Shown piece after piece: positions 3,116-44,360 of a stretch of 64,000 nucleotides of DNA (position 1 is the stretch's first letter; the number at the start of each line of letters is the position of its first letter). The notes beneath the pieces were generated by a model, which saw nothing but the letters and a program-made list of their open reading frames with translations, was not told where the DNA came from and made no database searches. Position numbers and translations under genes: made by a program. Source of the stretch: a bacterium (lineage in GTDB: Bacteria; Sysuimicrobiota; Sysuimicrobiia; Sysuimicrobiales; Humicultoraceae). The stretch covers positions 25,097 through 89,096 of the forward strand of contig JBOGSD010000068.1 in NCBI GenBank assembly GCA_050695215.1, written 5' to 3'.

Positions 3116-4020
3116 GTCGGGTATTTCAGCTCCCGTTCTACGACTTCCGATAGGCGTTCTCTTGCGACCTTGGTATACACTCGCGTTGTCTTGGGGTCCT
3201 TGTGGCGAAGGATATCCTGGATGTACTGCAACGGCACGCCCCGGTCCGCGAGCGTCACGCCTGCGGTATGACGCAGGTCGTGGAAGCGCAAGCGCCTCTC
3301 GATAGCGGCATCTTTGAGGTACCTGGCCAGGGCTTTCTCGACCGTCGTGTAGTGCAGCCGTCTCGCGCCTCGCGGTGGCAATGGGATGAACACCGCCCGT
3401 GAGGCGCAGACTGGTCGACGAGCCAGCCAGGACTCCACCGCCTGGACGGCGTCTTCGCTCACCGGCTGGATGGCCTCCGCACCGCCTTTTCCTGTGATCT
3501 TGAGCTGCCTCCGATCAAGCAGAAGATCCACAAGGTCGAGGTTCAGGATCTCGCTGATCCGGAGCGATTGCAGCCCCAGTTCGATGATGGCGCGGTCACG
3601 GAGCCCCCGGTCGTGGCGCGGGATAGCCCGCCTCAGCGCACCGACCTCTTCCGGCAGGAGGAAGTTTGGGGTCCGCTCGGGGACCCTGGGGGGCCGAATC
3701 GATTGAGCGGGGTTGGCGTCCAGTCTTCCAGTCTCCACGAGATACGCGTAGAAGCGCCGAATGGCGACAATACGGCGGGCTCTGGAGCGTGGGGCGAGAC
3801 CGGCACGGGTCATCGCGTGAGCATACCGTCGAACGACGTCTGCGGTGACCGCGGCGAGATCCGTCTTCTGGAGGAACTCCATGAACTGCCGGAGATCCCC
3901 CAGGTACTCGCCGACCGTCCTATTGGACTTGTTGGCGCTGTCCAGATCCCCGGCCCACTCCTGGAGGAGAGGGGGGAGGTCGGCTGGCATGCCGCGGCGG
4001 CGGCCATACGATCTAGCCAT
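3112..4020 (-). CDS. Tyrosine site-specific recombinase, XerC/XerD family
   Basis: C-terminal catalytic region HDLRHT...LGH-like...RVYT with catalytic Tyr. N-terminal SAM-like core-binding domain. The start could instead be at 3990. Confidence 0.8.
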   Translation of the reverse strand: MARSYGRRRGMPADLPPLLQEWAGDLDSANKSNRTVGEYLGDLRQFMEFLQKTDLAAVTADVVRRYAHAMTRAGLAPRSRARRIVAIRRFYAYLVETGRLDANPAQSIRPPRVPERTPNFLLPEEVGALRRAIPRHDRGLRDRAIIELGLQSLRISEILNLDLVDLLLDRRQLKITGKGGAEAIQPVSEDAVQAVESWLARRPVCASRAVFIPLPPRGARRLHYTTVEKALARYLKDAAIERRLRFHDLRHTAGVTLADRGVPLQYIQDILRHKDPKTTRVYTKVARERLSEVVERELKYPT

Positions 4021-4107
4021 AGTGAGCCACCAGGCAATTCAGCCTAATCGTCATTAGACAGAATATACGCGGCTGGCCAGCCAATTCCTCCGGTCCCGAT
4101 GGGCTTC

Positions 4108-4121
4108 CGAACGAGTGTTTG
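4108..4121 (+). promoter_or_regulatory. Candidate LexA (SOS) box CGAACGAGTGTTTG
   Basis: Cheo-type GAAC-N4-GTTC-like palindrome between divergent lexA and the recombinase operon. The same CGAAC-N4-GTTTG form occurs upstream of recA at 39587-39600. Confidence 0.5.
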
Positions 4122-4139
4122 CCCGGCCCGCGGCGCCGG

Positions 4140-4148
4140 TGGTATAAT
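4140..4148 (+). promoter_or_regulatory. Extended -10 element TGGTATAAT for lexA
   Basis: TGnTATAAT lies about 55 nt upstream of the lexA ATG and just downstream of the candidate SOS box. Confidence 0.35.
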
Positions 4149-4204
4149 CCCTCCGCACTCCCGAAGGAGCCCGAACCTCACATCCCTGCAAGGAGGCCGC
4201 CACC

Positions 4205-4828
4205 ATGGGTCGAGCGCTGACGCGGCGCCAGGCGGAAATTCTCACTTTCATTCAACGGTACAGTGAGACGCACGGCTACCCGCCGTCGGTGCGTGAGATC
4301 GGCCGGGCCCTCGGTTTGACCAGCAGCTCGACGGTCCACAGCCATCTGGCTGCGCTGGAAAAGAAAGGCTACCTGCACCGCGACCCATCGAAGCCCCGCG
4401 CGCTGGAGATCCTCCGGGACGAGCACGCCATGGCGCCCAAGAAGATGGTGCCGCTGCCGGTCGTCGGCCGGGTGGCCGCCGGCACCCCGATTCTGGCCGA
4501 GGAGAACATCGAAGACTACCTGCCGCTGCCGACCGAGTTCCTGCGCGACGGCGGCGACGGCGGCTTCATCTTGCACGTCCGCGGCGACAGCATGATCGAC
4601 GACGGTATCCAGGACGGGGATTATCTCATCGTCCGCAAGCAGCCGACGGCCCGGGACGGCGACATCGTCGTGGCCCGTTTGGATGACGGCGCCACCGTGA
4701 AGCGCTTCTACCGTGAGGACGGCCACGTCCGCCTCCAGCCCGCCAACGCCGCCATGGAGGCGATCCGCACGCGCGACGTCCACATCGAAGGCAAGGTTGT
4801 CGGTCTGATCCGCCGGATGGTCTCCTAA
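4205..4828 (+). CDS. lexA: LexA repressor
   Basis: N-terminal winged HTH (GYPPSVREIG). C-terminal S24 peptidase with AAG cleavage site and Ser/Lys dyad (GDSM...KRF). AAGGAGG RBS. Confidence 0.9.
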   Translation: MGRALTRRQAEILTFIQRYSETHGYPPSVREIGRALGLTSSSTVHSHLAALEKKGYLHRDPSKPRALEILRDEHAMAPKKMVPLPVVGRVAAGTPILAEENIEDYLPLPTEFLRDGGDGGFILHVRGDSMIDDGIQDGDYLIVRKQPTARDGDIVVARLDDGATVKRFYREDGHVRLQPANAAMEAIRTRDVHIEGKVVGLIRRMVS

Positions 4829-6741
4829 AAGAGCCGGATCAACCCCACCGGTAGGCGGACGCTGAGCACCCTCGCCAGCAGTTCCAGCGCGAACACGGTA
4901 GACGCGGTATAGAGCACCGCGCGCGGCCAGGGCATCTGCGCGACGCCGACACTGAACCCCAGGACCCAGAGGGCCGCGGCGACCCGGAACCCAACGACCC
5001 AGATCAGCATCATGCAGGCGGCGATCGCCGCCAGGTGGACGAAGGCGCGCCTGATCTGAGGCGCGACTCCCGAGGGCGGGCCGGACCGGTCGGGTTCCTC
5101 CTCGACCTCGTCCTCATCGCCCACGGGGACGCTGCGGCCGCGGATCTCCTGGACGAGTTGGACGACACAGAGGACCGCCCCCGGGATCGCAACGAAAAGC
5201 GGCATCCGTCCCGCGGCTGGTAGGAAACCTCGGGCTTCGACCGCGGCATAGGCAAAGAGGGCAAACAGCCCTACCGACACAACCGTCGCCATGCCCGGGG
5301 CCCATCGCACCGGCGTGGCCCGTTCCTCCTTCTCCCGCGTTCGCAAGGCCCGCCAGGCGCCCCAGATGAAAGGTGAGATCAACAGGATCCCGATGACGAT
5401 GACTGCAGGCCGGTTGAGCCACGTCAGGTTGGGGTAGAGGCTGATCGTCAGGTGAAAGTATCGCTCCAGTGGGCCAGAGAGGACGAACCCGATCAGCAGC
5501 GGGGCGCGCGGCCACCCGGTGACCTTCATAGCGTACCCAACGACGCCGAGGACGATCAGCGCCAGGAGGTCGCCGAACTGCTGCGCCTCCTGGAAGGCCG
5601 CCAGGATCATCATCAGGATGACCGGCGGAGCCACCAAGCTGAACGGAATATGGGTAAGCCGGGCCAGAACCGGGCTGGCCAGGAACATGATCGCCGCGCC
5701 GATGATGTTCGCGAGGGCAAAGGTCCAGATGATGGCGTAGATCAGGTCCAGGTGCTCCGTGACGACGCGGGGTCCGGGGACGACGCCGTAGGCCAGGAGG
5801 GCCCCCATGATCATCGCAGCGGGGGCGCTGCCGGGGACGCTGAAGAGCAGCGTCGGGACCAGGTCGCCCGCCTCCACCGCGTTGTTGGCCGCCTCAGGGG
5901 CGATGATCCCCCGGATGTCCCCCTTCCCGAAGCGGGAGTTGTGCCGCCGGCTGACCGCGGCGGCGTGGCCGTAGGCCATCCACGTGCCTGCGGTGGCGCC
6001 GATGGCCGGCAGCACACCCGCCCAGATGCCGATGAGCGAGCCGCGCAGCAGCAGCCAGCGGTGCTCGACGACGTCGCGCAGTCCCTGCATCCACCCCGAC
6101 CCGAGGTCGACGCGGCGGGCGATGGCACCACCCTTGGCCAGCAGCGAGACCACCTCGGCCAGGCCAAAAATGCCGAGGGCGACGATGGCCAGGTCCAGGC
6201 CGTCCATCAGGTAGAGGCGTTCGAAAGCGAAACGCACCTGGGCGGCCGCGGGAGCGCTCCCGATCGACCCGAGCAGGAGGCCGAGCAGGCCCGCGATGAT
6301 GCCCCGGCGCGGTTCCTTCCCCAGCAGGCTGCCGGCGAAGGAGACGCCCAGGGCGGTGAGCATAAAGAGTTCCGGTGAGCCGAAGGAGAGCACGAGCGGG
6401 CGGGCGATCGGGATCGACAGCGTCAGGCCGAGCGCCCCGATCAGGCCGCCGATGAGCGAGGAAAGATAGGCCGCCGAGAGCGCTCGCGCGGCCTGCCCCT
6501 GCTTGGCCAGGGCGTGTCCCTCGATGACGCTGGTCACCGAGGCGGAGGATCCGGGCGCCCCGATCAGGACGGAGGTGACGGTGTCCGAGGTGTGCACCAC
6601 CGCCAGCGCCCCGGTGAGCAACGCCAGGGCGCCGACGGCGTCCAGTTGCGTGACGAACGGCAACAGGATGGCGACGGCGACGATGCCTCCCATCCCCGGC
6701 AGGATGCCGACGATGATCCCGGCCAACACGCCCAGCAGCAT
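4825..6741 (-). CDS. tctA: Tripartite tricarboxylate transporter large permease TctA with a C-terminal TctB-like 4-TM extension (fusion)
   Basis: About 500-aa TctA core followed by about 140 aa containing four hydrophobic helices where a separate tctB is normally found. The stop overlaps the lexA stop convergently. Confidence 0.8.
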   Translation of the reverse strand: MLLGVLAGIIVGILPGMGGIVAVAILLPFVTQLDAVGALALLTGALAVVHTSDTVTSVLIGAPGSSASVTSVIEGHALAKQGQAARALSAAYLSSLIGGLIGALGLTLSIPIARPLVLSFGSPELFMLTALGVSFAGSLLGKEPRRGIIAGLLGLLLGSIGSAPAAAQVRFAFERLYLMDGLDLAIVALGIFGLAEVVSLLAKGGAIARRVDLGSGWMQGLRDVVEHRWLLLRGSLIGIWAGVLPAIGATAGTWMAYGHAAAVSRRHNSRFGKGDIRGIIAPEAANNAVEAGDLVPTLLFSVPGSAPAAMIMGALLAYGVVPGPRVVTEHLDLIYAIIWTFALANIIGAAIMFLASPVLARLTHIPFSLVAPPVILMMILAAFQEAQQFGDLLALIVLGVVGYAMKVTGWPRAPLLIGFVLSGPLERYFHLTISLYPNLTWLNRPAVIVIGILLISPFIWGAWRALRTREKEERATPVRWAPGMATVVSVGLFALFAYAAVEARGFLPAAGRMPLFVAIPGAVLCVVQLVQEIRGRSVPVGDEDEVEEEPDRSGPPSGVAPQIRRAFVHLAAIAACMMLIWVVGFRVAAALWVLGFSVGVAQMPWPRAVLYTASTVFALELLARVLSVRLPVGLIRLF

Positions 6742-6837
6742 GATGCCCAGCCGCGTGGGCTCGAGCAGCAGGGCCAGCCCGTTGCCGAGGGCCTCTAGCA
6801 GGGCGCGCCCCAGGTACCCTGGTGCGGGGCGGTGAGC

Positions 6838-7917
6838 CTAGATGTCGACGTTGTACTTGGCCCGCAGCAGATCCTTGATGAACTTCTGTACGTCCAGGGT
6901 CACGCGCAGCGACTTGATCACCGTGGCCTCCGACTTGTCGCCGCGGAGGAGCGTGTAGCCTTCCAGCACGTTCTTGCTCTTCTCCTTGAAGTCGGGATCG
7001 GCGTTCATCTTGTCGACCGCCTCCCACAGCGCGTTGAGCGCCTCGGGCGGGGTGCCCTGCGGCACCCAGAGCGCCTTCTGGAAGGTAAAGGCCGGGATCA
7101 GCAGCGCCTGGAGGGCCTTCCAGCGCGTCTGCCCGTCGGGCTTGCGCTTGTGGACCTGCTGGTAGAACTCGTAGATCGTGGGCAGGCGCGGCGCCGCCGG
7201 ATCGCGCCCGAGGACGCCCTGTTCGTTGGTGAAGCCAAAGGTGAAGAGCGCGCGCGCCTTGCCCTCCCGTTCCAGCGGCACCACCTGGGAGAGGTAGGCG
7301 GGCGTCGTCTGATAGTCGATATTGATCTCGCCCCGCTCGAAGGCCAGGCGGGCGGGGCCGCGCCCCTCGAACCCCATCACGCTGCGCACGTTCATGCCCA
7401 GCAGCTCAAACGTCAGCAGGACGGCCAGGTCGAGACCCGTCGCGCCGATGCCGCCGTAAACGAGCGGCTGGGTGGGCTTGAGCACATCCTCGGGCCGGCG
7501 GATCCCGGTGCCGGGCGAGACGTACACCGTGGCGCCGACGCCGTTGACCTTGACCAGTTTCCAGTTCTTGAAGTCGTAGCGCACCTGCGGAACGCCCAAG
7601 ATGTAAGGGATGATCGTCGAGCCGGAGGTGGCCAGGATCTGCAGTCCGTCCGGCTTGGCGTTCTGGACGTAGAAGTTGGCGCCGGTGATGCTGCCCCCGC
7701 CGGGCATGTTGCGCACGGAGACCCGGGGGTTTCCGGCGATGTGTTTTTCGAAGAAGGGCGCCAGGAAGCGCGTCTCGATGTCGGTGCCGCCGCCGGGCCC
7801 GAAGGGCACCAGGATCTCGATGACCTTGCCGGCGAAGTAGGGCGCCTGCGCTTGCGCCGGTCCCAGCCCGGCTGCGACCAGCGCAGCCGCTACCAGTAGA
7901 ACGATCCCCCGTCTCAC
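6838..7917 (-). CDS. tctC: Tripartite tricarboxylate transporter substrate-binding protein TctC (Bug family)
   Basis: Signal peptide followed by a Bug/TctC fold sequence (GGGTD, PGGG motifs). Confidence 0.85.
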   Translation of the reverse strand: MRRGIVLLVAAALVAAGLGPAQAQAPYFAGKVIEILVPFGPGGGTDIETRFLAPFFEKHIAGNPRVSVRNMPGGGSITGANFYVQNAKPDGLQILATSGSTIIPYILGVPQVRYDFKNWKLVKVNGVGATVYVSPGTGIRRPEDVLKPTQPLVYGGIGATGLDLAVLLTFELLGMNVRSVMGFEGRGPARLAFERGEINIDYQTTPAYLSQVVPLEREGKARALFTFGFTNEQGVLGRDPAAPRLPTIYEFYQQVHKRKPDGQTRWKALQALLIPAFTFQKALWVPQGTPPEALNALWEAVDKMNADPDFKEKSKNVLEGYTLLRGDKSEATVIKSLRVTLDVQKFIKDLLRAKYNVDI

Positions 7918-7966
7918 CCCGTCATCCCCCCTGTCTCACCTGTGACGCACGCTCCGATGCACTCCG

Positions 7967-9166
7967 TCACCCGCTGGTTGCGACGGCGCGCGCCGCCGCG
8001 CTCTCGAGCGGCCAGAGCGACACCGGCACGCAGGCAAAGCCTTCCATCAACCGGCGGGCGGTCCGCCGGGTGACGACCTTCTCGGCGACCCATTGCCCGT
8101 CCCGCCGCGCCACCAACGCGCCCACCTCGATCACACCCGCCGGATGGCCGACCCGCACCGTCCGCTCGCCGGCCGGACCGGGACGCGCCGCCTCGTGCGG
8201 CAGCGTCCCCTCGATCTGCGCCGCGACGGAGGTGGCGATGGCTCCCGTGAGCGCGTAGGAGCGGTGCAGCCGGCCCATCGACATGATCCGCCCGACCAGA
8301 TCGATGCGCTCTGCCGCCACCGCCGTCCCCTTCGTCGAGGTGTAGGTCGCCGGCGGCGAGATCCAGGCGAGTTTAGGCACCCCGGGGCTGCGGGAGGTGG
8401 CTTCTTCCATGCTCCGGGCGAGGCCGATGCGCACCCCCGCCGCGGCCCGCACCGCCTCGAGGCGGGAGAGCAGGGCGTCGTCGCCGTCGACCCGGTCCGG
8501 CATCTCCAGCCCGGTGAGCCCCAGATCCGCCGGCCGCACGAAGACCAGGGGGTTGGCCGCGTCCACCAGCGACACGGTGACGCCGCCCACGCCGGGGACG
8601 TCCAGAAGGTCGGTGGGATGGCCCGTCGGCAGCAGCCGTCCCGTCATCGAGCCGCCGGGATCGAGGAACTCCAGGCGGATCTGCCCCCCGCTCCCCGGGA
8701 CGCCGTCAATGACGAAGTCCCCCTCCACCCGCGGCAGCCCGCGGTCGGTAGGGACGTGGGCGATGATGCGCTTACGGGTGTTGGTCTGCCAGATGCGCAC
8801 CACCGTCACCGGGCCGGTCGCCTCCACCATGCCTTCCTCGATGGCAAAGGGGCCGACCGCCGAGGAGATGTTGCCACAGTTGCCGCCGTAATCGACCAGT
8901 GGCGTGGTCACACTGACCTGCCCGAAGGTGTAGTCGACGTCCGCGTCGGGGAGGGACGGCGGGGCAATGATCGCCGCTTTGCTGGTCGTGGACGTGGCGC
9001 CTCCCAGCCCGTCGATCTGGCGGCCGTAGGGGTCGCCGCCTCCGAAGATCGAGAGGATGACGCGGTCGCGGAGCGCCTCTTCGGCGGGGAGGTCTCTGCT
9101 GTGAAAGAAGACGGCCCGGCTGGTGCCCCCGCGCATCAGCACGGCCGGCACCCGACGCTGTCTCAT
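7967..9166 (-). CDS. PrpF/AcnD-accessory family isomerase (2-methylaconitate isomerase-like)
   Basis: N-terminus VPAVLMRGGTSRAVFF matches the PrpF MRGGTSKGVFF motif. Start chosen at the internal Met preceded by GGGAGAGGGG. Confidence 0.75.
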   Translation of the reverse strand: MRQRRVPAVLMRGGTSRAVFFHSRDLPAEEALRDRVILSIFGGGDPYGRQIDGLGGATSTTSKAAIIAPPSLPDADVDYTFGQVSVTTPLVDYGGNCGNISSAVGPFAIEEGMVEATGPVTVVRIWQTNTRKRIIAHVPTDRGLPRVEGDFVIDGVPGSGGQIRLEFLDPGGSMTGRLLPTGHPTDLLDVPGVGGVTVSLVDAANPLVFVRPADLGLTGLEMPDRVDGDDALLSRLEAVRAAAGVRIGLARSMEEATSRSPGVPKLAWISPPATYTSTKGTAVAAERIDLVGRIMSMGRLHRSYALTGAIATSVAAQIEGTLPHEAARPGPAGERTVRVGHPAGVIEVGALVARRDGQWVAEKVVTRRTARRLMEGFACVPVSLWPLESAAARAVATSG

Positions 9167-9182
9167 CCCAGACCCCTCTCCC

Positions 9183-10664
9183 CTACCCCGCCGCTGCGCT
9201 CCGGAGCTGCCGCGCGGCATACTGACCGGCGATGCGCCCGAAGACCGCCCCCCGCATCAGGCCCGCCCCCGCCGGATAGTTGAAGTAGAAGAACCCACCG
9301 GTGATCTCTCCCGTCGCCAGCAGGCCGGGGATAATGGCATTCTCGGTATCGAGCACCCGGGCCTGCTCGTCCACGCGGATGCCGCCGTAGGTGAAGGTAA
9401 TGCCGCAGGTGACCGGATACGCCACAAAGGGGGGCCGCTCGAGCGGCGTGGCCCAGTTGGACTTGGCAGGCTGCAGCCCCCGCGTCCTGAAGCCATCGCG
9501 CACGGCGGGATCGAAGCGGCCGCTCCGCGGGGCGGCATTGTACGCCGCCAACTGGTCGGCCAGCGTCCGGCGCGGCACCCCGACCGCGTCGGCCAGCGCC
9601 TCGAAGGTCTCCGCCTGCTGCGGGCGAGCGGTGCGGTACCGTTCCTCTAGGAGCGGGACGGTCTGCTGGTCGAAGAGCTGCCAGGCCCGATTCTGCGGCT
9701 GTGAAAGAATCGCCCGGCCGATCCTGGCATAGGTGTACTGGGAAAAGTCCTCTCCCTCGTCGATGAACCGCCGGCCCTCGCTGTTGACCATGACGCTGTA
9801 GGGATAGGAGAGCCGGTTGGTCTTGTCGGTGAGCCGGAGGTCTCCCACCGGCGGCGCGGTGGCGTCGATCGGCGTGGCGTGGCAGCCGCTCCAGTGACCG
9901 TAGGGCTGCGCGCCCGCCTCGAGAGCGGCCGCGAGCATCTCGCCGGTGTTGTAGGCGGTGCCGCGGACGAAAACGGTATCCCATCCCGTCCCCAGGTAAC
10001 GGGCCCGCATCTCGGGGTTGGCCTCGAAGCCTCCGCTTCCCAGAATCACACTGTCTGCGTCCAGCTCGAGGGTGCGCCCCCCGGTCCGCACCGCCACTCC
10101 CCGCACCCGCCCTGCGCCGTCCACCGCGAGGCGGATTGCCTTGGCGTCGTAGGCGATGGGAATCGACCGCGCCTCCGCCGCCGCGAAGAGCGCCTGGCTC
10201 AGCCCCGGGCCGGCGCCGCGTGTCTGCAGGAGGAGGCCGGGCGGAAAGGACCAGCGCCGCCCCTGGCGGAGGCCAAAGATCTCGCTGAGTTCCCATTCCA
10301 CCCCCAGATCCCGCATCCAGCGGATGGTCTCCAGCGAACGTTCCACCAGCACCCCGGTCAGCAGCGGGTCGGCCAGCCCGCCGCTGGTGCGCATGATGTC
10401 GGTGTAATACCGGTTGGTCGGATAGGGCTCGCCCTCGACCTCCGCATCCGGCGGAGCCGGCAGCAGCCGTAGGACTTCCTCTACCGACGCGTAGGCGAAG
10501 CGGAAGACCGCGCCGGAGAAACGGGTGTTGCCCCCGCGCAGCTCCCGCGTGGCCTTTTCTACGACCAGCACCGCGGCCCCCGCGTCCCGGGCGGCGATCG
10601 CGGCGGTGAGGGCGGCGTTGCCGGCGCCGACGACGATGACGTCCGCCTGCGGCAGATCCGTCAC
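9183..10664 (-). CDS. FAD-dependent oxidoreductase, TcuA (tricarballylate dehydrogenase)-like / fumarate reductase flavoprotein family
   Basis: N-terminal GAGNAALTAAI Rossmann motif. C-terminal GEITGGFFYFNYP..GAVFGRIAG typical of TcuA and fumarate reductase flavoproteins. Confidence 0.7.
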   Translation of the reverse strand: MTDLPQADVIVVGAGNAALTAAIAARDAGAAVLVVEKATRELRGGNTRFSGAVFRFAYASVEEVLRLLPAPPDAEVEGEPYPTNRYYTDIMRTSGGLADPLLTGVLVERSLETIRWMRDLGVEWELSEIFGLRQGRRWSFPPGLLLQTRGAGPGLSQALFAAAEARSIPIAYDAKAIRLAVDGAGRVRGVAVRTGGRTLELDADSVILGSGGFEANPEMRARYLGTGWDTVFVRGTAYNTGEMLAAALEAGAQPYGHWSGCHATPIDATAPPVGDLRLTDKTNRLSYPYSVMVNSEGRRFIDEGEDFSQYTYARIGRAILSQPQNRAWQLFDQQTVPLLEERYRTARPQQAETFEALADAVGVPRRTLADQLAAYNAAPRSGRFDPAVRDGFRTRGLQPAKSNWATPLERPPFVAYPVTCGITFTYGGIRVDEQARVLDTENAIIPGLLATGEITGGFFYFNYPAGAGLMRGAVFGRIAGQYAARQLRSAAAG

Positions 10665-11548
10665 CGCGGGTCCCCGCTCCCCCCCTCGCCGTAGCGCTCG
10701 GACAGGGCGAGGTACTCATCCAGGCGGACCAGGGCGTCCCGCTCGGCGAACGCCGCGCGCGCTGCCTCGGGGGTATGACCCTCCCGGCGCAGCGCGGTGA
10801 GGGCGCGCTGCATCCCCCGGACGGCCGCCAGCTGCGCGTCGGCGGGGAAGATGACGATCCGATAACCGAGCACTTCCAGGTCGCGGGGGGCGAGCAGCGG
10901 GCTCTTGCCGCTGTAGGTCATGTTGTAGAGCAGAGGGTGGCGGATGGCGCGGGAGATCGCGGCCACCTCGTCCACCGATCGCGGCGCTTCGACGAAAATC
11001 ATGTCCGCCCCGGCTGCGGCGTACGCCGTCCCGCGGCGCACCGCCTCCTCCAGCCCCACCGCGGCGCGCGCGTCGGTGCGGGCGATGACGATCAGGTCGG
11101 GGTCGGTCCGCGCCTCCACGGCCGCGCGGATCTTGCCGGCCATCTCTTCCAGCGGGATCAGATCCTGGCCGTCGTAGTGGCCGCAGCGCTTTGGAGCGAT
11201 CTGGTCCTCCAAATGCAGGGCGGCGACGCCCGCCGCCTCGTAGGCACGTACCGTCCGCCGCACGTTCAACGCGTTCCCGTAGCCGGTGTCGGCGTCGGCG
11301 ATCACCGGCACCGTCACCGCCTCAGTGATCTGCCGGATCCGCGCCACCATGTCGCTGAGGTCGAGCAGGCCGAGGTCGGGCAGGCCGCTGCTGCGGGCGA
11401 TCGCCCCTCCGCTGGCGTAGACTGCCTCAAACCCGGCCTCCTCCGCAAGGCGCGCGGAGAGGCCGTCGAAGACGCCGGGGGCGACGAGGATGGGACCATC
11501 AGCGATCCTTGCGCGGAGGCGTTTGCGCTGGGCGGTCGCCTCGCTCAT
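10661..11548 (-). CDS. Isocitrate lyase/PEP mutase family lyase (2-methylisocitrate lyase PrpB-like)
   Basis: KRCGH signature of the ICL/PEPM family. DADTGYG metal site. A GTG at 11554 is an alternative start. Confidence 0.75.
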   Translation of the reverse strand: MSEATAQRKRLRARIADGPILVAPGVFDGLSARLAEEAGFEAVYASGGAIARSSGLPDLGLLDLSDMVARIRQITEAVTVPVIADADTGYGNALNVRRTVRAYEAAGVAALHLEDQIAPKRCGHYDGQDLIPLEEMAGKIRAAVEARTDPDLIVIARTDARAAVGLEEAVRRGTAYAAAGADMIFVEAPRSVDEVAAISRAIRHPLLYNMTYSGKSPLLAPRDLEVLGYRIVIFPADAQLAAVRGMQRALTALRREGHTPEAARAAFAERDALVRLDEYLALSERYGEGGSGDPR

Positions 11549-11550
11549 CG

Positions 11551-13317
11551 TCACGGCACAGGCTGACCCGGCGCCAACCTGGCGGCCAGCGCCGGTGGGA
11601 CTTCCGCCTCCACCCAGATGGCGTCGGCCTTGTAGCGCTGCGTCAGCACGCGCCCCTGCGCGTACACCGCGGCCAGCCGTCCGGCCTCAGCGTAGGGGAT
11701 GGCGAAGCGGACCCGCACGAGCGGCGCCGGCAGCCGCTGGCCGATGCGCCGCAGCAGGTTCAACAGCCCGACGCCGTGCTGGGCGGCGATGAGGACCGCC
11801 TCGGGGACCTCCCGCTCGCGGGCCTGGCGCTCGGCGGCCGTCAGCCGGTCGATCTTGTTGAAGGCCAGCACCTGGGTCCGCTCCCCCGCGCCCAGCTCGG
11901 CGAGGACGCGGTCGGCGACCGCGCGTTGGTGCCGCCACTGCGGGTCGGAGGCGTCCACGACGTGCACCAGGAGGTCGGCGGCCACGACCTCTTCCAGGGT
12001 CGCCCGGAAGGCTGCCACCAGGTGGGTGGGCAGTTTGTGGATGAAGCCGACGGTGTCCACCAAGAGGACGGTCTGGCCGTTGGGCAGGGTGACCTTGCGC
12101 ACGGTGGGGTCTAGCGTGGCAAAGAGCTTGTCTTCGACAAGCACGCCGGCCTGTGTCAGCGCGTTGAGTAAGGTTGATTTGCCGGCGTTGGTGTATCCGG
12201 TGATGGCGACGATGGGATGGCGGGTGTCGCGCCGAGCGGCGCGCTGCAGCGCCCGGTGGCGGCCCACCTCGCCGAGTTCGCGGCGCAGGTCGGTGATGCG
12301 CTGGCGGATCCGGCGGCGGTCCACTTCCAGCTTCGTTTCCCCCGGGCCGCGCGTGCCGATCCCGCCGCCGAGCCGCGAGAGCCAGACGCCCCGCCCGGCC
12401 AGCCGCGGCAGGAGGTAGGTCATTTGCGCCAGTTCCACCTGCAGGCGCCCCTCGCGCGTCTGCGCGCGGCGCGCGAAGATGTCCAGAACGAGCGCGGTGC
12501 GGTCGAGCACCTTGAGCCCGAGGTCCCGCTCCAGGTTCCGCTGCTGCGCGGGGCGCAGGTCCAGGTCGAAAATGGCCAGGTCGGCGTCGCGCTCCTCGCA
12601 AAGGCGGAGCAGCTCGGTCACCTTTCCGCGGCCGATAGCGGTGGCCGGGTCGGGACGAGCGCGTGCCTGCGACAACCGGCCGACGATCTCGGCGCCGGCG
12701 GTCTCGGCCAGCCGGGCGAGTTCATCGAGCGAGGCCTCGGCGGGCAGGGTGTCTATGCCGTCGGTGCCGTCGCCGGTGGAGAGTCCCACGAGGACGGCGC
12801 GCTCGAACCGTGCCGCCGTGCGGATCAGCGCGGGCGCCCGTCGCAAGGCAGACTCTGTGGCCTTGATCCGAGGCGCCGCTTCCAGGTGCACCAACGTCTC
12901 GATGTCGTAGGGTCCTTCCGACGTGGCGCCCGGAGGGCTCCCGTTCCACCCGGGGGCCAGCGTGATCAGCCATCCCTCGGTGGGAGTCCCCTTGCGCGAT
13001 CCGATGAGGAGGGCCAGATCCAGCCGCGCCTCAATCAGGTGGCGTTCGTCTCCGGCCCCCGGCCGGCTCTCCGCCTCCGGCCGCGCCCCCACGTAGCGGA
13101 GCCCGATCAACCGCGTAGAGGAGGCCCGGGAGGTCAGTCCCTCGAGCAGTTCCTGCCAGCGCCGGCTGACCACGACCTCGCGCACCGTGCCGTGGCGGTC
13201 CAGGTAGACGCCCACCTCCCGGCGGGTGGCGTGGGACAGGTGCGCCAGCGTGGCCAGGAGGTCGGGCGAGGCGACGCGGTCCTGCGGGACATGGTGGCGC
13301 AGCAGCGCGGTGAGCAT
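11551..13317 (-). CDS. hflX: GTPase HflX
   Basis: HflX N-domain followed by a G-domain (GYTNAGKSTLLNALT, DTVGF) and a C-terminal domain. Has a long N-terminal extension. Confidence 0.85.
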   Translation of the reverse strand: MLTALLRHHVPQDRVASPDLLATLAHLSHATRREVGVYLDRHGTVREVVVSRRWQELLEGLTSRASSTRLIGLRYVGARPEAESRPGAGDERHLIEARLDLALLIGSRKGTPTEGWLITLAPGWNGSPPGATSEGPYDIETLVHLEAAPRIKATESALRRAPALIRTAARFERAVLVGLSTGDGTDGIDTLPAEASLDELARLAETAGAEIVGRLSQARARPDPATAIGRGKVTELLRLCEERDADLAIFDLDLRPAQQRNLERDLGLKVLDRTALVLDIFARRAQTREGRLQVELAQMTYLLPRLAGRGVWLSRLGGGIGTRGPGETKLEVDRRRIRQRITDLRRELGEVGRHRALQRAARRDTRHPIVAITGYTNAGKSTLLNALTQAGVLVEDKLFATLDPTVRKVTLPNGQTVLLVDTVGFIHKLPTHLVAAFRATLEEVVAADLLVHVVDASDPQWRHQRAVADRVLAELGAGERTQVLAFNKIDRLTAAERQAREREVPEAVLIAAQHGVGLLNLLRRIGQRLPAPLVRVRFAIPYAEAGRLAAVYAQGRVLTQRYKADAIWVEAEVPPALAARLAPGQPVP

Positions 13318-13346
13318 GCGCCGGTGAGTGGGATCGATCGCGCGGG

Positions 13347-14588
13347 TCAGGCCCCAGACCTGCGGGATGACTCCTCGCCTCCGACCCTGGAGGATGACGC
13401 CTCACGTCCAACCCTGGAGGATGGCGTCTGACTTCCAAAAGCACGGGCCAACCGGTCGAGGGCCTCGTCGAGCCGGGCGTCCGGCGTGGTCAGGGAGATG
13501 CGGACATAGCGGACTCCCTGGGCGCCATAACCTGCGCCTGGGGTGATGAGGACGCCGGTGCGGTCCAGCACCTCCGCCGCAAAGTCGGCGCCGCTGCGCC
13601 CGTTGGGGGCGGCCATCCAAAGATAGATCGTGGCCTTGGGCCGGTCCACCGGCCAGCCGATCGCGGTGAGCGCCTCCGTGGCGCGGTCCCGCCGGCGGCG
13701 GTAGACGTCCACGCGCTGATGCAGCGGTTCCCGCGGCCCCAGCAGGGCGGCGACGCCCGCTTCCTGGACGGCTCGGAACACACCGGAATCGACGTTGGTC
13801 TTGATCGTCCCCAGCGCCTTGATCACCGCGGCGTTGCCGACGGCAAACCCGATGCGCCACCCGGTCATGCAGAAGGTTTTGGAGAGGGAGTGAAACTCCA
13901 CCCCCACCTCCTTGGCGCCGTGCGCCTGCAGGAAGCTGGGCGGCCGGTACCCATCGTAGGCGATCTCGGAATAGGAGTTGTCGTGCGCCACCACCAGGTC
14001 GTGCGCCTGCGCAAACTGGACCGCCTCTTCGAAGAACGGCAGCTCGATCACGCCGGCGGTGGGATTGTTGGGGTAGTTGAGAAAGAGGATCCGGGCGCGG
14101 CGCGCGCTCGCCGCAGAGATAGCGGCCAGCTCCGGGACGAACGCGCGCGCGGGGTCGAGGGGGAACGCGATCGGGTCCCCCTCCGCCAGGATCGTGGCGG
14201 AGCGGTAGACCGGATAGCCGGGGTCCGGGACGAGCGTGGCGTCGCCCGGATTCAAGAGCGCCCAGGGCAAGTGGGCCAGTCCCTCTTTTGACCCGATCAA
14301 GGCGAGGACTTCGGTCTGGGGGTCGAGGCGAACGTCGAACCGGCGGCGGTACCATTCGGCCACCGCCTCGCGAAAGTCCGCGCTGCCCCCATACGGAGGA
14401 TAGCGGTGGCTCCGCGGATCCCGCGCCGCCCGCACCAGCGCATCGATGATGTGCTCCGGCGTCGGCAGATCGGGGTCGCCGACGCCCAGGCTGATCACGT
14501 CGACGCCTTTCGCCGCCAGCGCCTCCTTCTGGCGGTCCAGGTCGGCGAACAGGTAGGCGCCGATGCGGTTCAGTCGGCCCGAGTTCAT
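13347..14588 (-). CDS. Class I/II PLP aminotransferase (LL-diaminopimelate aminotransferase DapL-like)
   Basis: Aminotransferase class I fold with SLSKTF PLP-lysine motif. Start taken at the ATG at 14588, preceded by GGTGGAG. The C-terminal tail is encoded by a 27-bp tandem duplication. Confidence 0.75.
   Translation of the reverse strand: MNSGRLNRIGAYLFADLDRQKEALAAKGVDVISLGVGDPDLPTPEHIIDALVRAARDPRSHRYPPYGGSADFREAVAEWYRRRFDVRLDPQTEVLALIGSKEGLAHLPWALLNPGDATLVPDPGYPVYRSATILAEGDPIAFPLDPARAFVPELAAISAASARRARILFLNYPNNPTAGVIELPFFEEAVQFAQAHDLVVAHDNSYSEIAYDGYRPPSFLQAHGAKEVGVEFHSLSKTFCMTGWRIGFAVGNAAVIKALGTIKTNVDSGVFRAVQEAGVAALLGPREPLHQRVDVYRRRRDRATEALTAIGWPVDRPKATIYLWMAAPNGRSGADFAAEVLDRTGVLITPGAGYGAQGVRYVRISLTTPDARLDEALDRLARAFGSQTPSSRVGREASSSRVGGEESSRRSGA
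13386..13440. repeat. 27-bp imperfect tandem duplication (2 copies) in the 3' end of the aminotransferase gene
   Basis: CCCTGGAGGATGACGCCTCACGTCCAA followed by CCCTGGAGGATGGCGTCTGACTTCCAA, read directly on the plus strand. Confidence 0.5.
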
Positions 14589-14608
14589 TGCTCCACCATC
14601 TTCCGCCT

Positions 14609-15514
14609 TCATTGCATCGTAAGCATAGCATGGACAGTCATCGCGACCGTTTCCGCCCCGGCGTGCCCCACGTCGATCCAACGGATGCGGGTGTCGCGGC
14701 GAAACCAGACCTCCTGGCGCCGCGCATACCGCCTCGTGTTCCGTTTGAGCAGGGCCACCGCGTTGTCGAGGGTCGCCTTCCCCTCCAGGACCGGGACGAT
14801 CTCCTTGTAACCGAGGCCCTGCATGGCGGGGGTGCTGGGAGGGACGCCCGCGGAGACGAGCGCGCGCACCTCCTCGACCAGTCCGGCGGCAATCTGCTGA
14901 TCCACCCGTTCATCGATCCGCCGCTGCAGCAGCGGACGAGGCATCCGCAGCCCGATCATCGTGACCTGCCAGAGAGGCGCCTCGGCCCGCTGCTGCGCCG
15001 AGAGCGGCCGTCCCGTGCGGTCGATCACCTCCAGCGCCCGGATGATCCGCCGCACGTTCCGCGGATGAATGCGCGCCGCCGCCTGCGGATCTACCTGCTC
15101 CAGGCGCGCATAGAGGGCGCCGGGGGTGAGCCCATCCGCCTCCTCCGCCTTCCGGCGGAATGCCCAGTCGGGACTCACCCGGGGAAGGCGCAGGCCATCG
15201 ACGAGGGCCCGCAGGTAGAGGCCCGTCCCCCCGACCAGCAGCGGCACCCGCGCGCGGGCGTGCACGGAGGCGATGGCGGCCAGCGCGAGGCCCTGGTACT
15301 GGCTCAGCGTGAAGACCTCGCGGGGGTCGGCGACGTCGAGCAGATGATGGGGCACGGCGGCCCGCGCGGCCGGCGTGGGCTTGGCCGTCCCGATGTCCAT
15401 CCCACGGTAGATGGTACGCGAATCGGCGGAGACGATCTCCGCGCCGATCTCCGGCGCCAGGGCCACCGCGGCGGCGCTCTTGCCGGTGGCGGTCGCTCCA
15501 CAGATGACCACCAC
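14609..15514 (-). CDS. miaA: tRNA dimethylallyltransferase
   Basis: P-loop CGATATGKS and DSRTIYRGMDIGTAKP motif. The start is a GTG. Confidence 0.9.
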   Translation of the reverse strand: MVVICGATATGKSAAAVALAPEIGAEIVSADSRTIYRGMDIGTAKPTPAARAAVPHHLLDVADPREVFTLSQYQGLALAAIASVHARARVPLLVGGTGLYLRALVDGLRLPRVSPDWAFRRKAEEADGLTPGALYARLEQVDPQAAARIHPRNVRRIIRALEVIDRTGRPLSAQQRAEAPLWQVTMIGLRMPRPLLQRRIDERVDQQIAAGLVEEVRALVSAGVPPSTPAMQGLGYKEIVPVLEGKATLDNAVALLKRNTRRYARRQEVWFRRDTRIRWIDVGHAGAETVAMTVHAMLTMQ

Positions 15515-15574
15515 CCGCCGCGGCGTCAGCCCTCCCTCCGCCGCGGCGTTAGCCGTCCTTCACCGCCCCGAGGA

Positions 15575-21856: not shown

Positions 21857-21956
21857 TGGTGGCGGAGGGCCCTGGGAATCGAACCCAGCGCGGAACCCGA
21901 GGCCCCGCCACCGGTTTTGAAGACCGGGACCCGCACCAGCGGACACTGCCCTCCGC
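21857..21956 (-). tRNA. selC: tRNA-Sec (selenocysteine tRNA, anticodon UCA)
   Basis: Reverse complement reads GCGGAGGG..GUCCGC-UGGU-GCGGGU..CCGGU-CUUCAAA-ACCGG..long variable arm..CUGGG-UUCGAUU-CCCAG..CCCUCCGC-CACCA. The anticodon loop CUUCAAA is identical to E. coli selC. 6-bp D-stem with 4-nt loop, long extra arm, about 100 nt total. The exact 5'/3' ends are uncertain by 1-3 nt because of the CCACCA tail. Confidence 0.75.
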
Positions 21957-44305: not shown

Positions 44306-44360
44306 GACCGGAGGGGTTCCCTTCCGCCTTTGCGAATCCCCTTTGAGATCGGACGTCACG

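What the first reader, a model, noticed from the sequence alone, without database searches (positions are those of the whole stretch)
4825..11554. Tricarboxylate cluster: PrpB-like lyase, TcuA-like flavoprotein, PrpF-like isomerase, TctC, TctA::TctB, with no TcuB partner
Five co-directional genes with overlaps or tiny gaps combine a tripartite tricarboxylate uptake system with three enzymes. These normally belong to different pathways. PrpB and PrpF come from the methylcitrate cycle. TcuA comes from tricarballylate oxidation and normally needs the membrane Fe-S protein TcuB. Together they suggest uptake of a tricarboxylate, FAD-dependent dehydrogenation to an aconitate-type acid, PrpF isomerisation, hydration by an aconitase encoded elsewhere, then C-C cleavage by the ICL-family lyase. 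That would be a possibly uncharacterised route for tricarballylate, aconitate or methyl-aconitate.
Basis: inference. Interest (0 to 1): 0.65.

Follow-up and report, generated by a model that had tools for sequence, protein, structure and literature searches.

The report
Orphan substituted-succinate breakdown gene cluster
Five neighbouring genes encode an uptake system, a flavin dehydrogenase, a double-bond isomerase and a carbon-carbon lyase; they probably break down a tricarballylate-like or branched dicarboxylic acid by a route no one has tested, built entirely from familiar enzyme families.

Summary
Window 4825-11554 (minus strand) holds five tightly packed genes: an ICL/PEP-mutase-family lyase, a TcuA-like flavoprotein, a PrpF-family isomerase, a TctC-like binding protein and a TctA::TctB fusion. 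No TcuB gene lies in the 64 kb.

The interpretation needs three corrections.
- **Missing TcuB is not an anomaly.** The flavoprotein is 32% identical to Salmonella TcuA. It belongs to a large clade in which 0 of 80 genome loci have tcuB within 10 kb. The usual neighbours are MmgE/PrpD, ICL-family lyase, PrpF, CoA-transferase or ETF genes.
- **The names are too specific.** The lyase and isomerase score below the PrpB and PrpF equivalog cut-offs. The isomerase matches 3-methylitaconate isomerase as well as it matches PrpF.
- **The substrate need not be a tricarboxylate.**

The pathway logic gains support. It runs: desaturation, isomerisation, hydration by an unlinked enzyme, then cleavage. Contiguous flavoprotein-PrpF-lyase trios recur in Actinomycetota and Alphaproteobacteria, and clustered versions in proteobacterial and Binataceae genomes. 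Flavoprotein-PrpD-lyase sets occur elsewhere. Relatives of the lyase often sit beside leuCD or PrpD-family genes.

Verdict: a real, conserved, uncharacterised catabolic module. It is a new variant of known kinds, of moderate interest, with the substrate unresolved.

The parts
10661..11554 (-). ICL/PEP-mutase-superfamily C-C lyase (PrpB-like, not a canonical PrpB), 297 aa
   Evidence: Pfam PEP_mutase E 8e-53. NCBIfam prpB TIGR02317 scores 299 bits, below the 354 cut-off. Best PDB matches are methylisocitrate lyases (E 9e-60), petal death protein (6e-57) and 2,3-dimethylmalate lyase (5e-53). Aligned to E. coli PrpB, it keeps D58, D85, D87, E115, K121-R-C123-G-H125, R158, E188, N210 and T212. It has Leu at R241 and Phe at R270.
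9183..10664 (-). TcuA-like FAD flavoprotein of a clade never found beside TcuB, 493 aa; predicted alpha,beta-dehydrogenase of a succinate-type acid
   Evidence: FAD_binding_2 E 1e-39. NF006130 scores 513 against 369; TIGR02485 scores 267 against 372. It is 32% identical to Salmonella R27 TcuA and 38% to M. nodulans TcuA. The equivalents of Fcc3 H365, R381 and R402 are kept (H262, R284, R299). H504 becomes F424 and R545 becomes Y463, as in a TcuB-linked TcuA. Clade separation is 100 of 100 bootstraps.
7967..9166 (-). PrpF-family isomerase, 399 aa (the ORF extends to 9220)
   Evidence: Pfam PrpF E 9e-128. TIGR02334 scores 386, below 440. PDB matches: 3g7k 3-methylitaconate isomerase E 3e-105 and 2pvz PrpF E 8e-102. 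The catalytic Lys (TSK) and Cys (GNCGN) are conserved. The start site and ribosome-binding site were read.
6838..7917 (-). TctC/Bug-type periplasmic solute-binding protein with an N-terminal signal peptide, 359 aa
   Evidence: Pfam TctC 28.7 bits against 27. PDB hits to BugE, BugD, Bug27, a terephthalate-binding TTT protein and a 'possible TctC subunit' entry (6hke) at E 3e-8 to 3e-6. Signal sequence MRRGIVLLVAAALVAAGLGPAQAQA.
4825..6741 (-). TTT membrane component: TctA with a C-terminal TctB-like four-helix extension (fusion), 638 aa
   Evidence: TctA E 2e-113 over residues 1-416. TctB 24.7 bits, below the 29.1 cut-off, over residues 513-631. Hydropathy shows about four extra hydrophobic segments after residue 480. 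The same fused length is seen in L001 (635 aa), L009 and L093.
11551..13317 (-). hflX (context): a housekeeping GTPase gene whose stop overlaps the lyase start by 4 nt
   Evidence: TIGR03156 458 bits against 217. The same 4-nt overlap occurs in L001, and hflX also lies just upstream of the lyase in L093.
4205..4828 (+). lexA (context): convergent gene that marks the downstream boundary of the cluster
   Evidence: TIGR00498 248 bits against 111. The position is conserved in L001 and L093.

Best explanation
The cluster encodes a CoA-independent oxidative route for a succinate-type acid substituted at C2. Candidates are tricarballylate or a methylated analogue, or an alkylsuccinate such as methylsuccinate.

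Proposed steps:
1. The TctC/TctA::TctB transporter imports the acid.
2. The TcuA-like flavoprotein removes two hydrogens to give a substituted fumarate or aconitate. It passes the electrons to an acceptor other than TcuB, such as quinone, ETF or O2.
3. The PrpF-family isomerase shifts or flips the double bond to the cis (maleate or cis-aconitate type) isomer.
4. A housekeeping aconitase-superfamily enzyme encoded elsewhere (aconitase or LeuCD) adds water.
5. The ICL-family lyase splits the resulting 2-hydroxy acid into glyoxylate or pyruvate plus a smaller carboxylate.

Shown: the gene families, the conserved catalytic residues, the separate clade never found beside TcuB, and the recurrent gene associations.

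Inferred: the order of reactions, the unlinked hydratase, the electron acceptor and the substrate.
For: - Family assignments and catalytic motifs are intact.
- In 80 genome loci anchored on relatives of the flavoprotein (45-76% identity), the recurrent neighbours are MmgE/PrpD (22 loci across all loci held), an ICL-family lyase (13) and PrpF (9). TcuB appears in none.
- Contiguous, co-directional flavoprotein-PrpF-lyase trios occur in Actinomycetota (L024, L033) and Alphaproteobacteria (L048). Clustered versions, not all co-directional, occur in proteobacterial and Binataceae MAGs (L054, L061, L074). Flavoprotein-PrpD-lyase sets occur in L005, L012 and L017. Flavoprotein-lyase pairs occur in L032, L052, L105, L112 and L114.
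- Among 80 metagenome loci anchored on the lyase, the commonest neighbours are leuC (13 loci) and leuD-like genes (8); the pair tested, in L142, scores well above the NCBIfam LeuC and LeuD cut-offs. PrpD-family genes follow, in 7 to 9 loci. This places the lyase family downstream of a hydratase.
- PrpF's documented role is to turn the AcnD product into the 2-methyl-cis-aconitate that housekeeping aconitase accepts (PMC5690661). That would explain why PrpF appears where no dedicated hydratase gene is present.
- PrpF-superfamily aconitate isomerases paired with a transporter already form a known assimilation system, TarA/TarB (PMC11495376).
Against: - No hydratase gene is in this cluster, in the window, or in the trio loci examined. 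The key middle step therefore rests on inference.
- L009, the 76%-identical relative, lacks the lyase, so the lyase may not be obligatory.
- Only 4 of 80 lyase-anchored loci carry the flavoprotein.
- The PrpF homologues in the distant trios are no closer to the window protein (39-51%) than the characterised Mii and PrpF appear to be.
- The lyases in L024 and L074 pass the PrpB cut-off, and L033, L054 and L061 share their motif. The window lyase does not pass. The trios may therefore not all handle the same substrate.
- There is no expression or biochemical data.
Confidence: 0.5

Rival explanations
1. This is a plain tricarballylate and trans-aconitate utilisation unit. The TTT system imports the tricarboxylate. 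The TcuA-like enzyme oxidises tricarballylate to aconitate. The PrpF-like enzyme acts as an aconitate isomerase and delivers cis-aconitate directly to the TCA cycle. The lyase is not part of the pathway; it would be a separate methylisocitrate or isocitrate-type lyase that happens to sit between hflX and the unit.
For: - The four-gene core without the lyase exists on its own in L009.
- The product, cis-aconitate, needs no further dedicated enzyme.
- NF006130 names the protein TcuA.
- PrpF-superfamily aconitate isomerases coupled to importers are documented (PMC11495376).
- Salmonella TcuA makes cis-aconitate from tricarballylate (cited in PMC2606687 and PMC10468695).
Against: - The flavoprotein is only 32% identical to Salmonella TcuA and is below the TIGR02485 cut-off.
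- Ten charged positions that are invariant in the four TcuB-linked TcuAs are changed in the window clade; nine are neutral there, including R51 to G, R269 to T and K310-R311 to Y-T.
- Flavoprotein-lyase adjacency recurs in several phyla, which argues that the lyase is functionally linked.
- The lyase is translationally coupled to the flavoprotein gene through a 4-nt overlap.
Confidence: 0.22
2. The flavoprotein works in the reductive direction. It would be an enoate reductase for an aconitate-, itaconate- or fumarate-like acid, serving as an electron sink or for detoxification. The PrpF-like enzyme would supply the isomer that can be reduced.
For: The superfamily contains many soluble reductases. 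Fumarate and urocanate reductases are the best structural matches. Itaconate reductase makes methylsuccinate (PMC12290011, citing Little et al.; bioRxiv 10.1101/2022.12.26.521950).
Against: - There is no cytochrome, FMN-binding or NADH-binding domain and no partner gene.
- The nearest named relatives are dehydrogenases.
- The link to a C-C lyase and to hydratase-type neighbours fits catabolism rather than respiration.
Confidence: 0.07
3. The five genes are neighbours without a shared pathway. The adjacency would reflect lineage-specific synteny only.
For: - The complete five-gene arrangement is seen only in closely related genomes, which also share the flanking hflX and lexA.
- There is no regulator and no detectable promoter or terminator to define an operon.
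Against: - Pairs and trios of the same families recur in unrelated phyla in different flanking contexts.
- The overlaps and short gaps indicate co-translation.
Confidence: 0.06

Closest known systems
Salmonella enterica tcuRABC tricarballylate utilisation operon (TcuA dehydrogenase, TcuB FADH2:quinone oxidoreductase, TcuC MFS transporter)
   Same: Both have a flavoprotein of the same family (NF006130 hit; shared GITFTYGG, CHA and RFxDEGED motifs) encoded next to a carboxylate importer. Both probably desaturate a succinate-type moiety (PMC10468695).
   Different: - The window flavoprotein is 32% identical and lies in a separate clade (100 of 100 bootstraps).
- There is no TcuB here or in any of 80 related loci.
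- The transporter is TTT rather than MFS, and there is no TcuR.
- PrpF-like and lyase genes are present here but absent from the tcu loci examined in Salmonella, Burkholderia, Acinetobacter and Methylobacterium.
AcnD/PrpF branch of the 2-methylcitrate cycle (PrpC, AcnD, PrpF, aconitase, PrpB)
   Same: A PrpF-family isomerase with the catalytic Lys and Cys, and an ICL-family lyase with the KRCGH loop. The logic also matches: the isomerase prepares a cis-aconitate-type acid for a housekeeping hydratase, and the lyase finishes the job (PMC5690661).
   Different: - There is no prpC, acnD or prpD.
- Both proteins score below the PrpF and PrpB equivalog cut-offs.
- The lyase has other residues at the PrpB R241 and R270 positions.
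- The unsaturated acid would come from a flavoprotein dehydrogenation, not from dehydration of methylcitrate.
Eubacterium barkeri nicotinate fermentation end steps (3-methylitaconate isomerase Mii, dimethylmaleate hydratase DmdAB, 2,3-dimethylmalate lyase Dml)
   Same: Mii (PDB 3g7k) is the best structural-database match of the isomerase (E 3e-105). A 2,3-dimethylmalate lyase structure (3fa3) matches the lyase at E 5e-53. The sequence isomerase, then LeuCD-type hydratase, then ICL-family lyase is the same logic (pathway from general knowledge).
   Different: There is no DmdAB-type hydratase and there are no upstream nicotinate genes here. A flavoprotein and a TTT importer are present instead. 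Sequence identity gives no preference for Mii over PrpF.
TarA/TarB trans-aconitate assimilation system of Bacillus velezensis
   Same: A PrpF-superfamily isomerase is encoded with an importer for an organic acid (PMC11495376).
   Different: The transporter type differs, and TarR has no counterpart here. The window cluster adds a flavoprotein and a lyase.

Membership tests
TcuA tricarballylate dehydrogenase (sensu stricto, Salmonella type) | Scores above the curated equivalog models | tested here: inconclusive
   NF006130 scores 513 bits against a cut-off of 369 (passes). TIGR02485 scores 267 against 372 (fails).
TcuA tricarballylate dehydrogenase (sensu stricto, Salmonella type) | Encoded next to tcuB, the Fe-S FADH2:quinone oxidoreductase | tested here: not met
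   No TcuB homologue was found in the 64-kb window or within 10 kb in any of 80 related genome loci. In the plasmid collection, every TcuB-adjacent TcuA in the listed rows is at most 36% identical to the window protein by that search, and none of the listed hits at 37% or more is TcuB-adjacent.
TcuA tricarballylate dehydrogenase (sensu stricto, Salmonella type) | Groups phylogenetically with the characterised enzyme | tested here: not met
   It is 32% identical to Salmonella R27 TcuA, whereas TcuB-linked TcuAs are 55-59% identical to the M. nodulans TcuA. All flavoproteins with no TcuB gene nearby form a group apart in 100 of 100 NJ bootstraps.
TcuA tricarballylate dehydrogenase (sensu stricto, Salmonella type) | Converts tricarballylate to cis-aconitate | not testable with these tools
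   This needs an enzyme assay.
PrpB 2-methylisocitrate lyase | ICL/PEP-mutase fold with Mg ligands and the K-R/K-C-G-H catalytic loop | tested here: met
   PEP_mutase E 8e-53. D58, D85, D87, E115, KRCGH, R158 and E188 are all conserved relative to E. coli PrpB.
PrpB 2-methylisocitrate lyase | Scores above the PrpB equivalog cut-offs | tested here: not met
   TIGR02317 scores 299 against 354, and NF008455 scores 248 against 353. By contrast, the lyases of trio loci L024 and L074 pass (360 and 396).
PrpB 2-methylisocitrate lyase | Arg241 and Arg270 of E. coli PrpB are conserved. They are conserved in all five MICL-like sequences aligned. Their role in binding the succinate carboxylate is recalled from memory. 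| tested here: not met
   The window protein has Leu at position 241 and Phe at position 270 in alignment A2.
PrpB 2-methylisocitrate lyase | Genomic association with prpC and prpD, or with acnD | tested here: not met
   None lies next to the cluster. The only citrate-synthase-family gene in the window is about 37 kb away, at 48118-49305.
PrpF 2-methylaconitate isomerase | PrpF fold with the catalytic Lys73 and Cys107 equivalents | tested here: met
   Pfam PrpF E 9e-128. TSK and GNCGN align with the catalytic Lys and Cys of 2pvz and 3g7k (PMC5690661).
PrpF 2-methylaconitate isomerase | Scores above the equivalog cut-off and is associated with acnD | tested here: not met
   TIGR02334 scores 386 against 440. 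The best PDB match is 3-methylitaconate isomerase. There is no acnD in the window.
Tripartite tricarboxylate transporter (TTT) | TctA large membrane subunit | tested here: met
   PF01970 scores 380 bits, and the match is full length.
Tripartite tricarboxylate transporter (TTT) | TctB small four-helix subunit | tested here: inconclusive
   It is present only as a C-terminal extension of TctA. PF07331 scores 24.7 against 29.1. About four hydrophobic segments are predicted.
Tripartite tricarboxylate transporter (TTT) | TctC/Bug periplasmic binding protein | tested here: met
   PF03401 scores 28.7 against 27. PDB Bug and TctC-type hits come in at E 3e-8 to 3e-6. A signal peptide is present.
Tripartite tricarboxylate transporter (TTT) | The ligand is a tricarboxylate | not testable with these tools
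   Solved relatives of the binding protein are named for varied or unstated ligands, including terephthalate. The family name does not fix the substrate.

The most novel reading that the evidence does not exclude
The cluster is one instance of an undescribed, widespread, modular pathway that degrades alkyl- or carboxyalkyl-succinates as free acids. It resembles beta-oxidation but uses no CoA. A flavoprotein from a TcuA-like clade that is never found beside TcuB desaturates the acid. A dedicated PrpD-family hydratase, or a PrpF isomerase working with housekeeping LeuCD or aconitase, then hydrates it. An ICL-family lyase cleaves the product. The many paralogues in Dehalococcoidia (some labelled SAR202), Rokubacteria, Binatia and Methylomirabilia genomes would then represent a toolkit for varied branched polycarboxylates in soil, groundwater and sea water.
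Probability: 0.33. Interest if true: 0.65.

Novelty: new variant of a known kind. Interest (0 to 1): 0.42.

Why it matters
If the proposed route is real, it would assign a function to a very large flavoprotein family. More than 7,800 relatives scored E <= 1e-30 in one search. Current pipelines label these proteins 'tricarballylate dehydrogenase TcuA', although this clade was never found next to TcuB and is only about 32% identical to the characterised enzyme.

It would also show how uncultured soil, groundwater and marine bacteria consume branched di- and tricarboxylic acids without activating them as CoA esters.

Practically, the finding flags a likely systematic over-annotation of three names (TcuA, PrpB-like, PrpF) in metagenome-derived genomes.

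Tried and rejected
- **Exact-sequence look-up of the window lyase** in the assembly index found nothing. The window itself is not on record; the nearest flavoprotein is 96% identical.
- **Search for a cis-encoded hydratase, TcuB or ETF.** I scanned the likely genes of the window and the unexplained neighbours in the trio loci. None was found in the window. The candidate 885-aa ORF in L023 is a flavin monooxygenase-esterase fusion, not an aconitase.
- **A recollection that Acinetobacter tcu loci carry a PrpF-like 'pacI' gene.** No PrpF homologue lies within 9 kb of tcuAB in the A. baumannii record examined. This is not used as evidence.
- **Substrate inference from fumarate-reductase active-site residues.** The H504-to-F and R545-to-Y replacements are shared with a TcuB-linked TcuA, so they do not discriminate.
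- **Literature searches** for TcuA+PrpF, PEP mutase+PrpF+FAD, and PrpD+tricarballylate dehydrogenase returned no papers.
- **Promoter and terminator scan** of 4000-15000 was uninformative. The only promoter-like site precedes lexA.
- **Rfam and tRNA scans** found only tRNA-Sec, far from the cluster.
- **A first bootstrap script timed out**. It was redone with a faster distance routine.
- **Sister relation of the window clade to the actinobacterial PrpF-linked flavoproteins.** Support is weak (30 of 100 bootstraps), so it is not claimed.

Full report
**1. What is there**

The window has about 70% G+C. On the minus strand between 4825 and 11554 lie five genes:
- A 297-aa ICL/PEP-mutase-family protein at 10661-11554.
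- A 493-aa FAD_binding_2 flavoprotein at 9183-10664.
- A PrpF-family protein at 7967-9166. The ORF runs to 9220, but the ATG at 9166 follows a GGAGAGG ribosome-binding site and matches the 399-aa homologues.
- A 359-aa TctC-like binding protein with a signal peptide at 6838-7917.
- A 638-aa TctA at 4825-6741. Its last ~160 residues form about four hydrophobic segments and give a sub-threshold TctB match.

Lyase and flavoprotein overlap by 4 nt. The remaining gaps are 16, 49 and 96 nt.

Upstream of that lie dapL-type aminotransferase, miaA, mutL and mutS genes. Downstream, lexA converges on the cluster. The cluster therefore sits at the tail of a housekeeping gene string and has no regulator of its own.

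About 45 likely genes of the window were scanned against Pfam or NCBIfam; a few short ORFs were not. The rest are housekeeping genes. No TcuB, aconitase-family, ETF or regulator gene was found.

**2. Is it real?**

The same hflX-lyase-flavoprotein-PrpF-TctC-TctAB-lexA arrangement occurs in a soil or groundwater-type MAG (L001, GCA_036004665.1; 76-94% protein identity). The five cluster genes are also in a Logan contig (L002), and the cluster with hflX and lexA is in a JGI metagenome contig (L093, 72-84%).

A 76%-identical relative labelled 'Armatimonadetes bacterium' (L009) has flavoprotein-PrpF-TctC-TctAB in a different context and without the lyase. The four-gene core is thus a transferable unit, and the lyase is an addition.

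**3. The flavoprotein**

It passes NCBIfam NF006130 ('TcuA', 513 against 369) but fails the older TIGR02485 TcuA model (267 against 372). Its best solved relatives are flavocytochrome c3 fumarate reductases and urocanate reductase, at only about E 1e-34.

Aligned to Shewanella flavocytochrome c3 (1qo8, with residue numbers recalled for Fcc3), it keeps the equivalents of His365, Arg381 and the proton donor Arg402 (H262, R284, R299). It replaces the carboxylate ligands His504 and Arg545 with Phe424 and Tyr463. The TcuB-linked TcuA of Methylobacterium nodulans has the same replacements. These are therefore family traits and do not help identify the substrate.

The decisive results concern TcuB.
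- A genome scan with an alignment of relatives returned 80 loci at 45-76% identity, mainly from Dehalococcoidia (some labelled SAR202), Rokubacteria, Methylomirabilia, Binatia, Nitrospinota, Actinomycetota and Proteobacteria.
- None has a TcuB homologue within 10 kb.
- In annotated plasmids and chromids, every TcuA in the listed rows with an adjacent tcuB is at most 36% identical to the window protein. None of the listed hits at 37% or more is TcuB-adjacent.
- The window protein is 32% identical to the Salmonella R27 tcuRABC-encoded TcuA. TcuB-linked TcuAs from alpha-, beta- and gammaproteobacteria are 55-59% identical to the M. nodulans TcuA.
- In a neighbour-joining tree of 107 sequences, all flavoproteins with no TcuB gene nearby form a group apart from the four TcuB-linked ones in 100 of 100 bootstraps. 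The window lineage is a 100%-supported clade.
- Ten charged positions invariant in the four TcuB-linked TcuAs are changed in the window clade; nine are neutral there (for example R51G, R269T, K310Y and R311T), and the tenth is Arg to Lys. The TcuB-less clade has its own near-invariant Arg220.

The absence of TcuB is therefore the rule for this clade, not an oddity. Tricarballylate cannot be assumed to be the substrate. In four or five related loci ETF genes lie beside the flavoprotein, which hints at one possible electron acceptor.

**4. The isomerase**

It is a full-length PrpF-family protein with the catalytic Lys and Cys (PMC5690661). It scores below the PrpF equivalog cut-off (386 against 440). 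It matches Eubacterium barkeri 3-methylitaconate isomerase slightly better than Shewanella PrpF (E 3e-105 against 8e-102).

The family includes cis-trans and double-bond-shifting isomerases for aconitate, methylaconitate, methylitaconate and oxalomesaconate. It also includes the aconitate isomerases TarA and TbrA (PMC11495376).

**5. The lyase**

It has every catalytic element of the C-C lyase branch of the superfamily, including the KRCGH loop. It fails both PrpB models (299 against 354; 248 against 353). It is about equally distant from methylisocitrate lyases, petal death protein and 2,3-dimethylmalate lyase.

In the alignment it has Leu and Phe where E. coli PrpB has Arg241 and Arg270. These arginines are conserved in the PrpB-like lyases of other loci. 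Their role in binding succinate is from my memory and was not checked.

Two lyase groups emerge:
- One contains the window protein and the lyases of L001, L048, L017, L032 and L052.
- A more PrpB-like group is found in L024, L033, L054, L061 and L074. The two members tested pass the PrpB cut-off.

**6. Comparative context**

Across all loci held, which are the 80 genome loci plus the earlier look-ups, the recurrent neighbours of the flavoprotein are:
- MmgE/PrpD-family genes in 22 loci, often immediately downstream.
- ICL-family lyases in 13 loci.
- CoA-transferase III genes in 12 loci.
- PrpF-family genes in 9 loci.

Contiguous, co-directional flavoprotein-PrpF-lyase trios occur in two Actinomycetota MAGs (L024, L033) and an alphaproteobacterial MAG (L048). 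Clustered versions occur in three proteobacterial or Binataceae MAGs (L054, L061, L074), not all on one strand. In those three the trio comes with a second flavoprotein paralogue and HpaB-like, glyoxalase, enoyl-CoA hydratase, luciferase-like and amidohydrolase genes.

Flavoprotein-PrpD-lyase sets occur in L005, L012 and L017. Flavoprotein-lyase pairs occur in L032, L052, L105, L112 and L114.

A metagenome scan anchored on the window-type lyase gave 80 loci. The commonest neighbours there are:
- leuC (13 loci) and leuD-like genes (8 loci). The pair tested, in L142, is bona fide: LeuC TIGR00170 scores 684 against 560, and LeuD scores 196 against 116.
- PrpD-family genes, in 7 to 9 loci.
- CoA-transferases, in 9 loci.
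- The flavoprotein, in only 4 loci.

The lyase family is thus repeatedly placed beside a hydratase. The flavoprotein clade is repeatedly placed beside a lyase, a PrpD-type enzyme or a PrpF-type enzyme.

**7. Most likely mechanism**

The pieces fit a free-acid analogue of beta-oxidation acting on a succinate moiety:
1. Import by the TTT system.
2. Flavin-dependent desaturation.
3. Conversion to the cis isomer by the PrpF-type enzyme.
4. Hydration by a housekeeping aconitase-superfamily enzyme, either aconitase or LeuCD.
5. Retro-aldol cleavage to glyoxylate or pyruvate plus a smaller acid.

Where a PrpD-family gene is present it may supply the hydration. This is an inference. PrpD-family proteins can also be isomerases: the methylsuccinate isomerase of PMC12290011 is one. 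PrpD and PrpF could therefore both act as epimerases upstream of the dehydrogenase.

The parallel with the two versions of the methylcitrate cycle (PrpD, or AcnD plus PrpF) is close (PMC5690661).

Candidate substrates:
- **Tricarballylate or a methyl analogue.** This would pass through aconitate or methylaconitate and then isocitrate or methylisocitrate.
- **Methylsuccinate or other alkylsuccinates.** These would pass through mesaconate and citraconate, and then 3-methylmalate or citramalate. Methylsuccinate is now known to be an environmental metabolite formed by itaconate reduction (PMC12290011; bioRxiv 10.1101/2022.12.26.521950).

I could not decide between these. The changed lyase arginines and the neutralised basic positions of the flavoprotein lean mildly away from a tricarboxylate. 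The lyase-free core in L009 leans towards tricarballylate or aconitate, whose product needs no further dedicated enzyme.

**8. Comparison with known systems and novelty**

The cluster works like a hybrid of three systems:
- The tcu operon (dehydrogenase plus importer).
- The AcnD/PrpF methylcitrate branch (isomerase, housekeeping hydratase, lyase).
- The Mii-DmdAB-Dml end of nicotinate fermentation.

It is not a member of any of them by the tests applied. Full-text searches found no paper that mentions TcuA together with PrpF, PrpD together with tricarballylate dehydrogenase, or PEP mutase with PrpF and FAD.

All parts belong to well-known families and the chemistry proposed is conventional. 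I therefore rate it a new variant of a known kind, with moderate interest (0.42). The pathway sketch itself is reasonable and now has comparative support. It remains untested, and the substrate is open.

Noticed in passing
window 37363-39516 (-): recA encodes 717 aa. A LAGLIDADG_2 homing-endonuclease domain (residues 316-422) lies between the RecA core (6-204) and RecA_C (630-685), which indicates an intein-containing RecA.
   Followed up: no
window 21860-21954 (-), 23243-25600 (-), 25246-26682 (-): The selenocysteine machinery is present: tRNA-Sec (Rfam 70 bits; ARAGORN anticodon tca), selB and selA.
   Followed up: partly
window 11551-13317 (-): HflX is 588 aa. About 190 N-terminal residues lie outside the TIGR03156 match (193-528). 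Its stop overlaps the lyase start by 4 nt. The same layout is seen in L001.
   Followed up: partly
window 13347-19953 (-): mutS-mutL-miaA-(LL-DAP aminotransferase)-hflX are co-directional and tightly packed. From memory, this resembles the E. coli mutL-miaA-hfq-hflX superoperon. The catabolic cluster is appended to its 3' end.
   Followed up: no
window 44058-47867 (+): A 1269-aa protein combines double zinc ribbons, an adenylate/guanylate cyclase domain, AAA_16 and TPR repeats.
   Followed up: no
L106, L124, L132, L136, L140-L142, L144, L147-L149, L151, L166 (metagenome loci): Relatives of the window lyase (45-58% identity) lie close to leuC-like genes, directly adjacent in most of these loci; leuD-like genes are also present in part of the set. 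The leuC/leuD pair tested, in L142, passes the NCBIfam cut-offs. Several loci carry two tandem lyase paralogues.
   Followed up: partly
L054, L061, L074 (about 1600-14400 in L074): The flavoprotein-PrpF-PrpB-like trio comes with a second flavoprotein paralogue. It also comes with HpaB-like, glyoxalase-fold, two enoyl-CoA hydratase, luciferase-like monooxygenase, amidohydrolase_2 and MFS genes. This looks like a larger conserved catabolic island.
   Followed up: partly
flavoprotein alignment; window protein positions 49, 51, 58, 108, 245, 269, 281, 310, 311, 403 and 220: Ten basic positions invariant in four TcuB-linked TcuAs are changed in the window clade; nine are neutral there and one is Arg to Lys. 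Arg220 is near-invariant (100 of 103) only in the clade without TcuB. These positions could be determinants of substrate or partner.
   Followed up: partly
L009 1891-3210 (-) and 10681-15214 (+): In the lyase-less relative, the four-gene core has two notable neighbours. Upstream and divergent is a gene with a CxxCxxC Fe-S motif. Downstream are a Fer4/NrfD fusion and a molybdopterin oxidoreductase. A link to re-oxidation of the flavoprotein is possible but untested.
   Followed up: no
L008 6204-7765; L053, L056, L073: ETF alpha and beta genes lie directly beside TcuA-like flavoproteins that have no TcuB gene nearby, in Bradyrhizobium plasmids and three MAGs. This suggests ETF as the acceptor for part of the clade.
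   Followed up: partly
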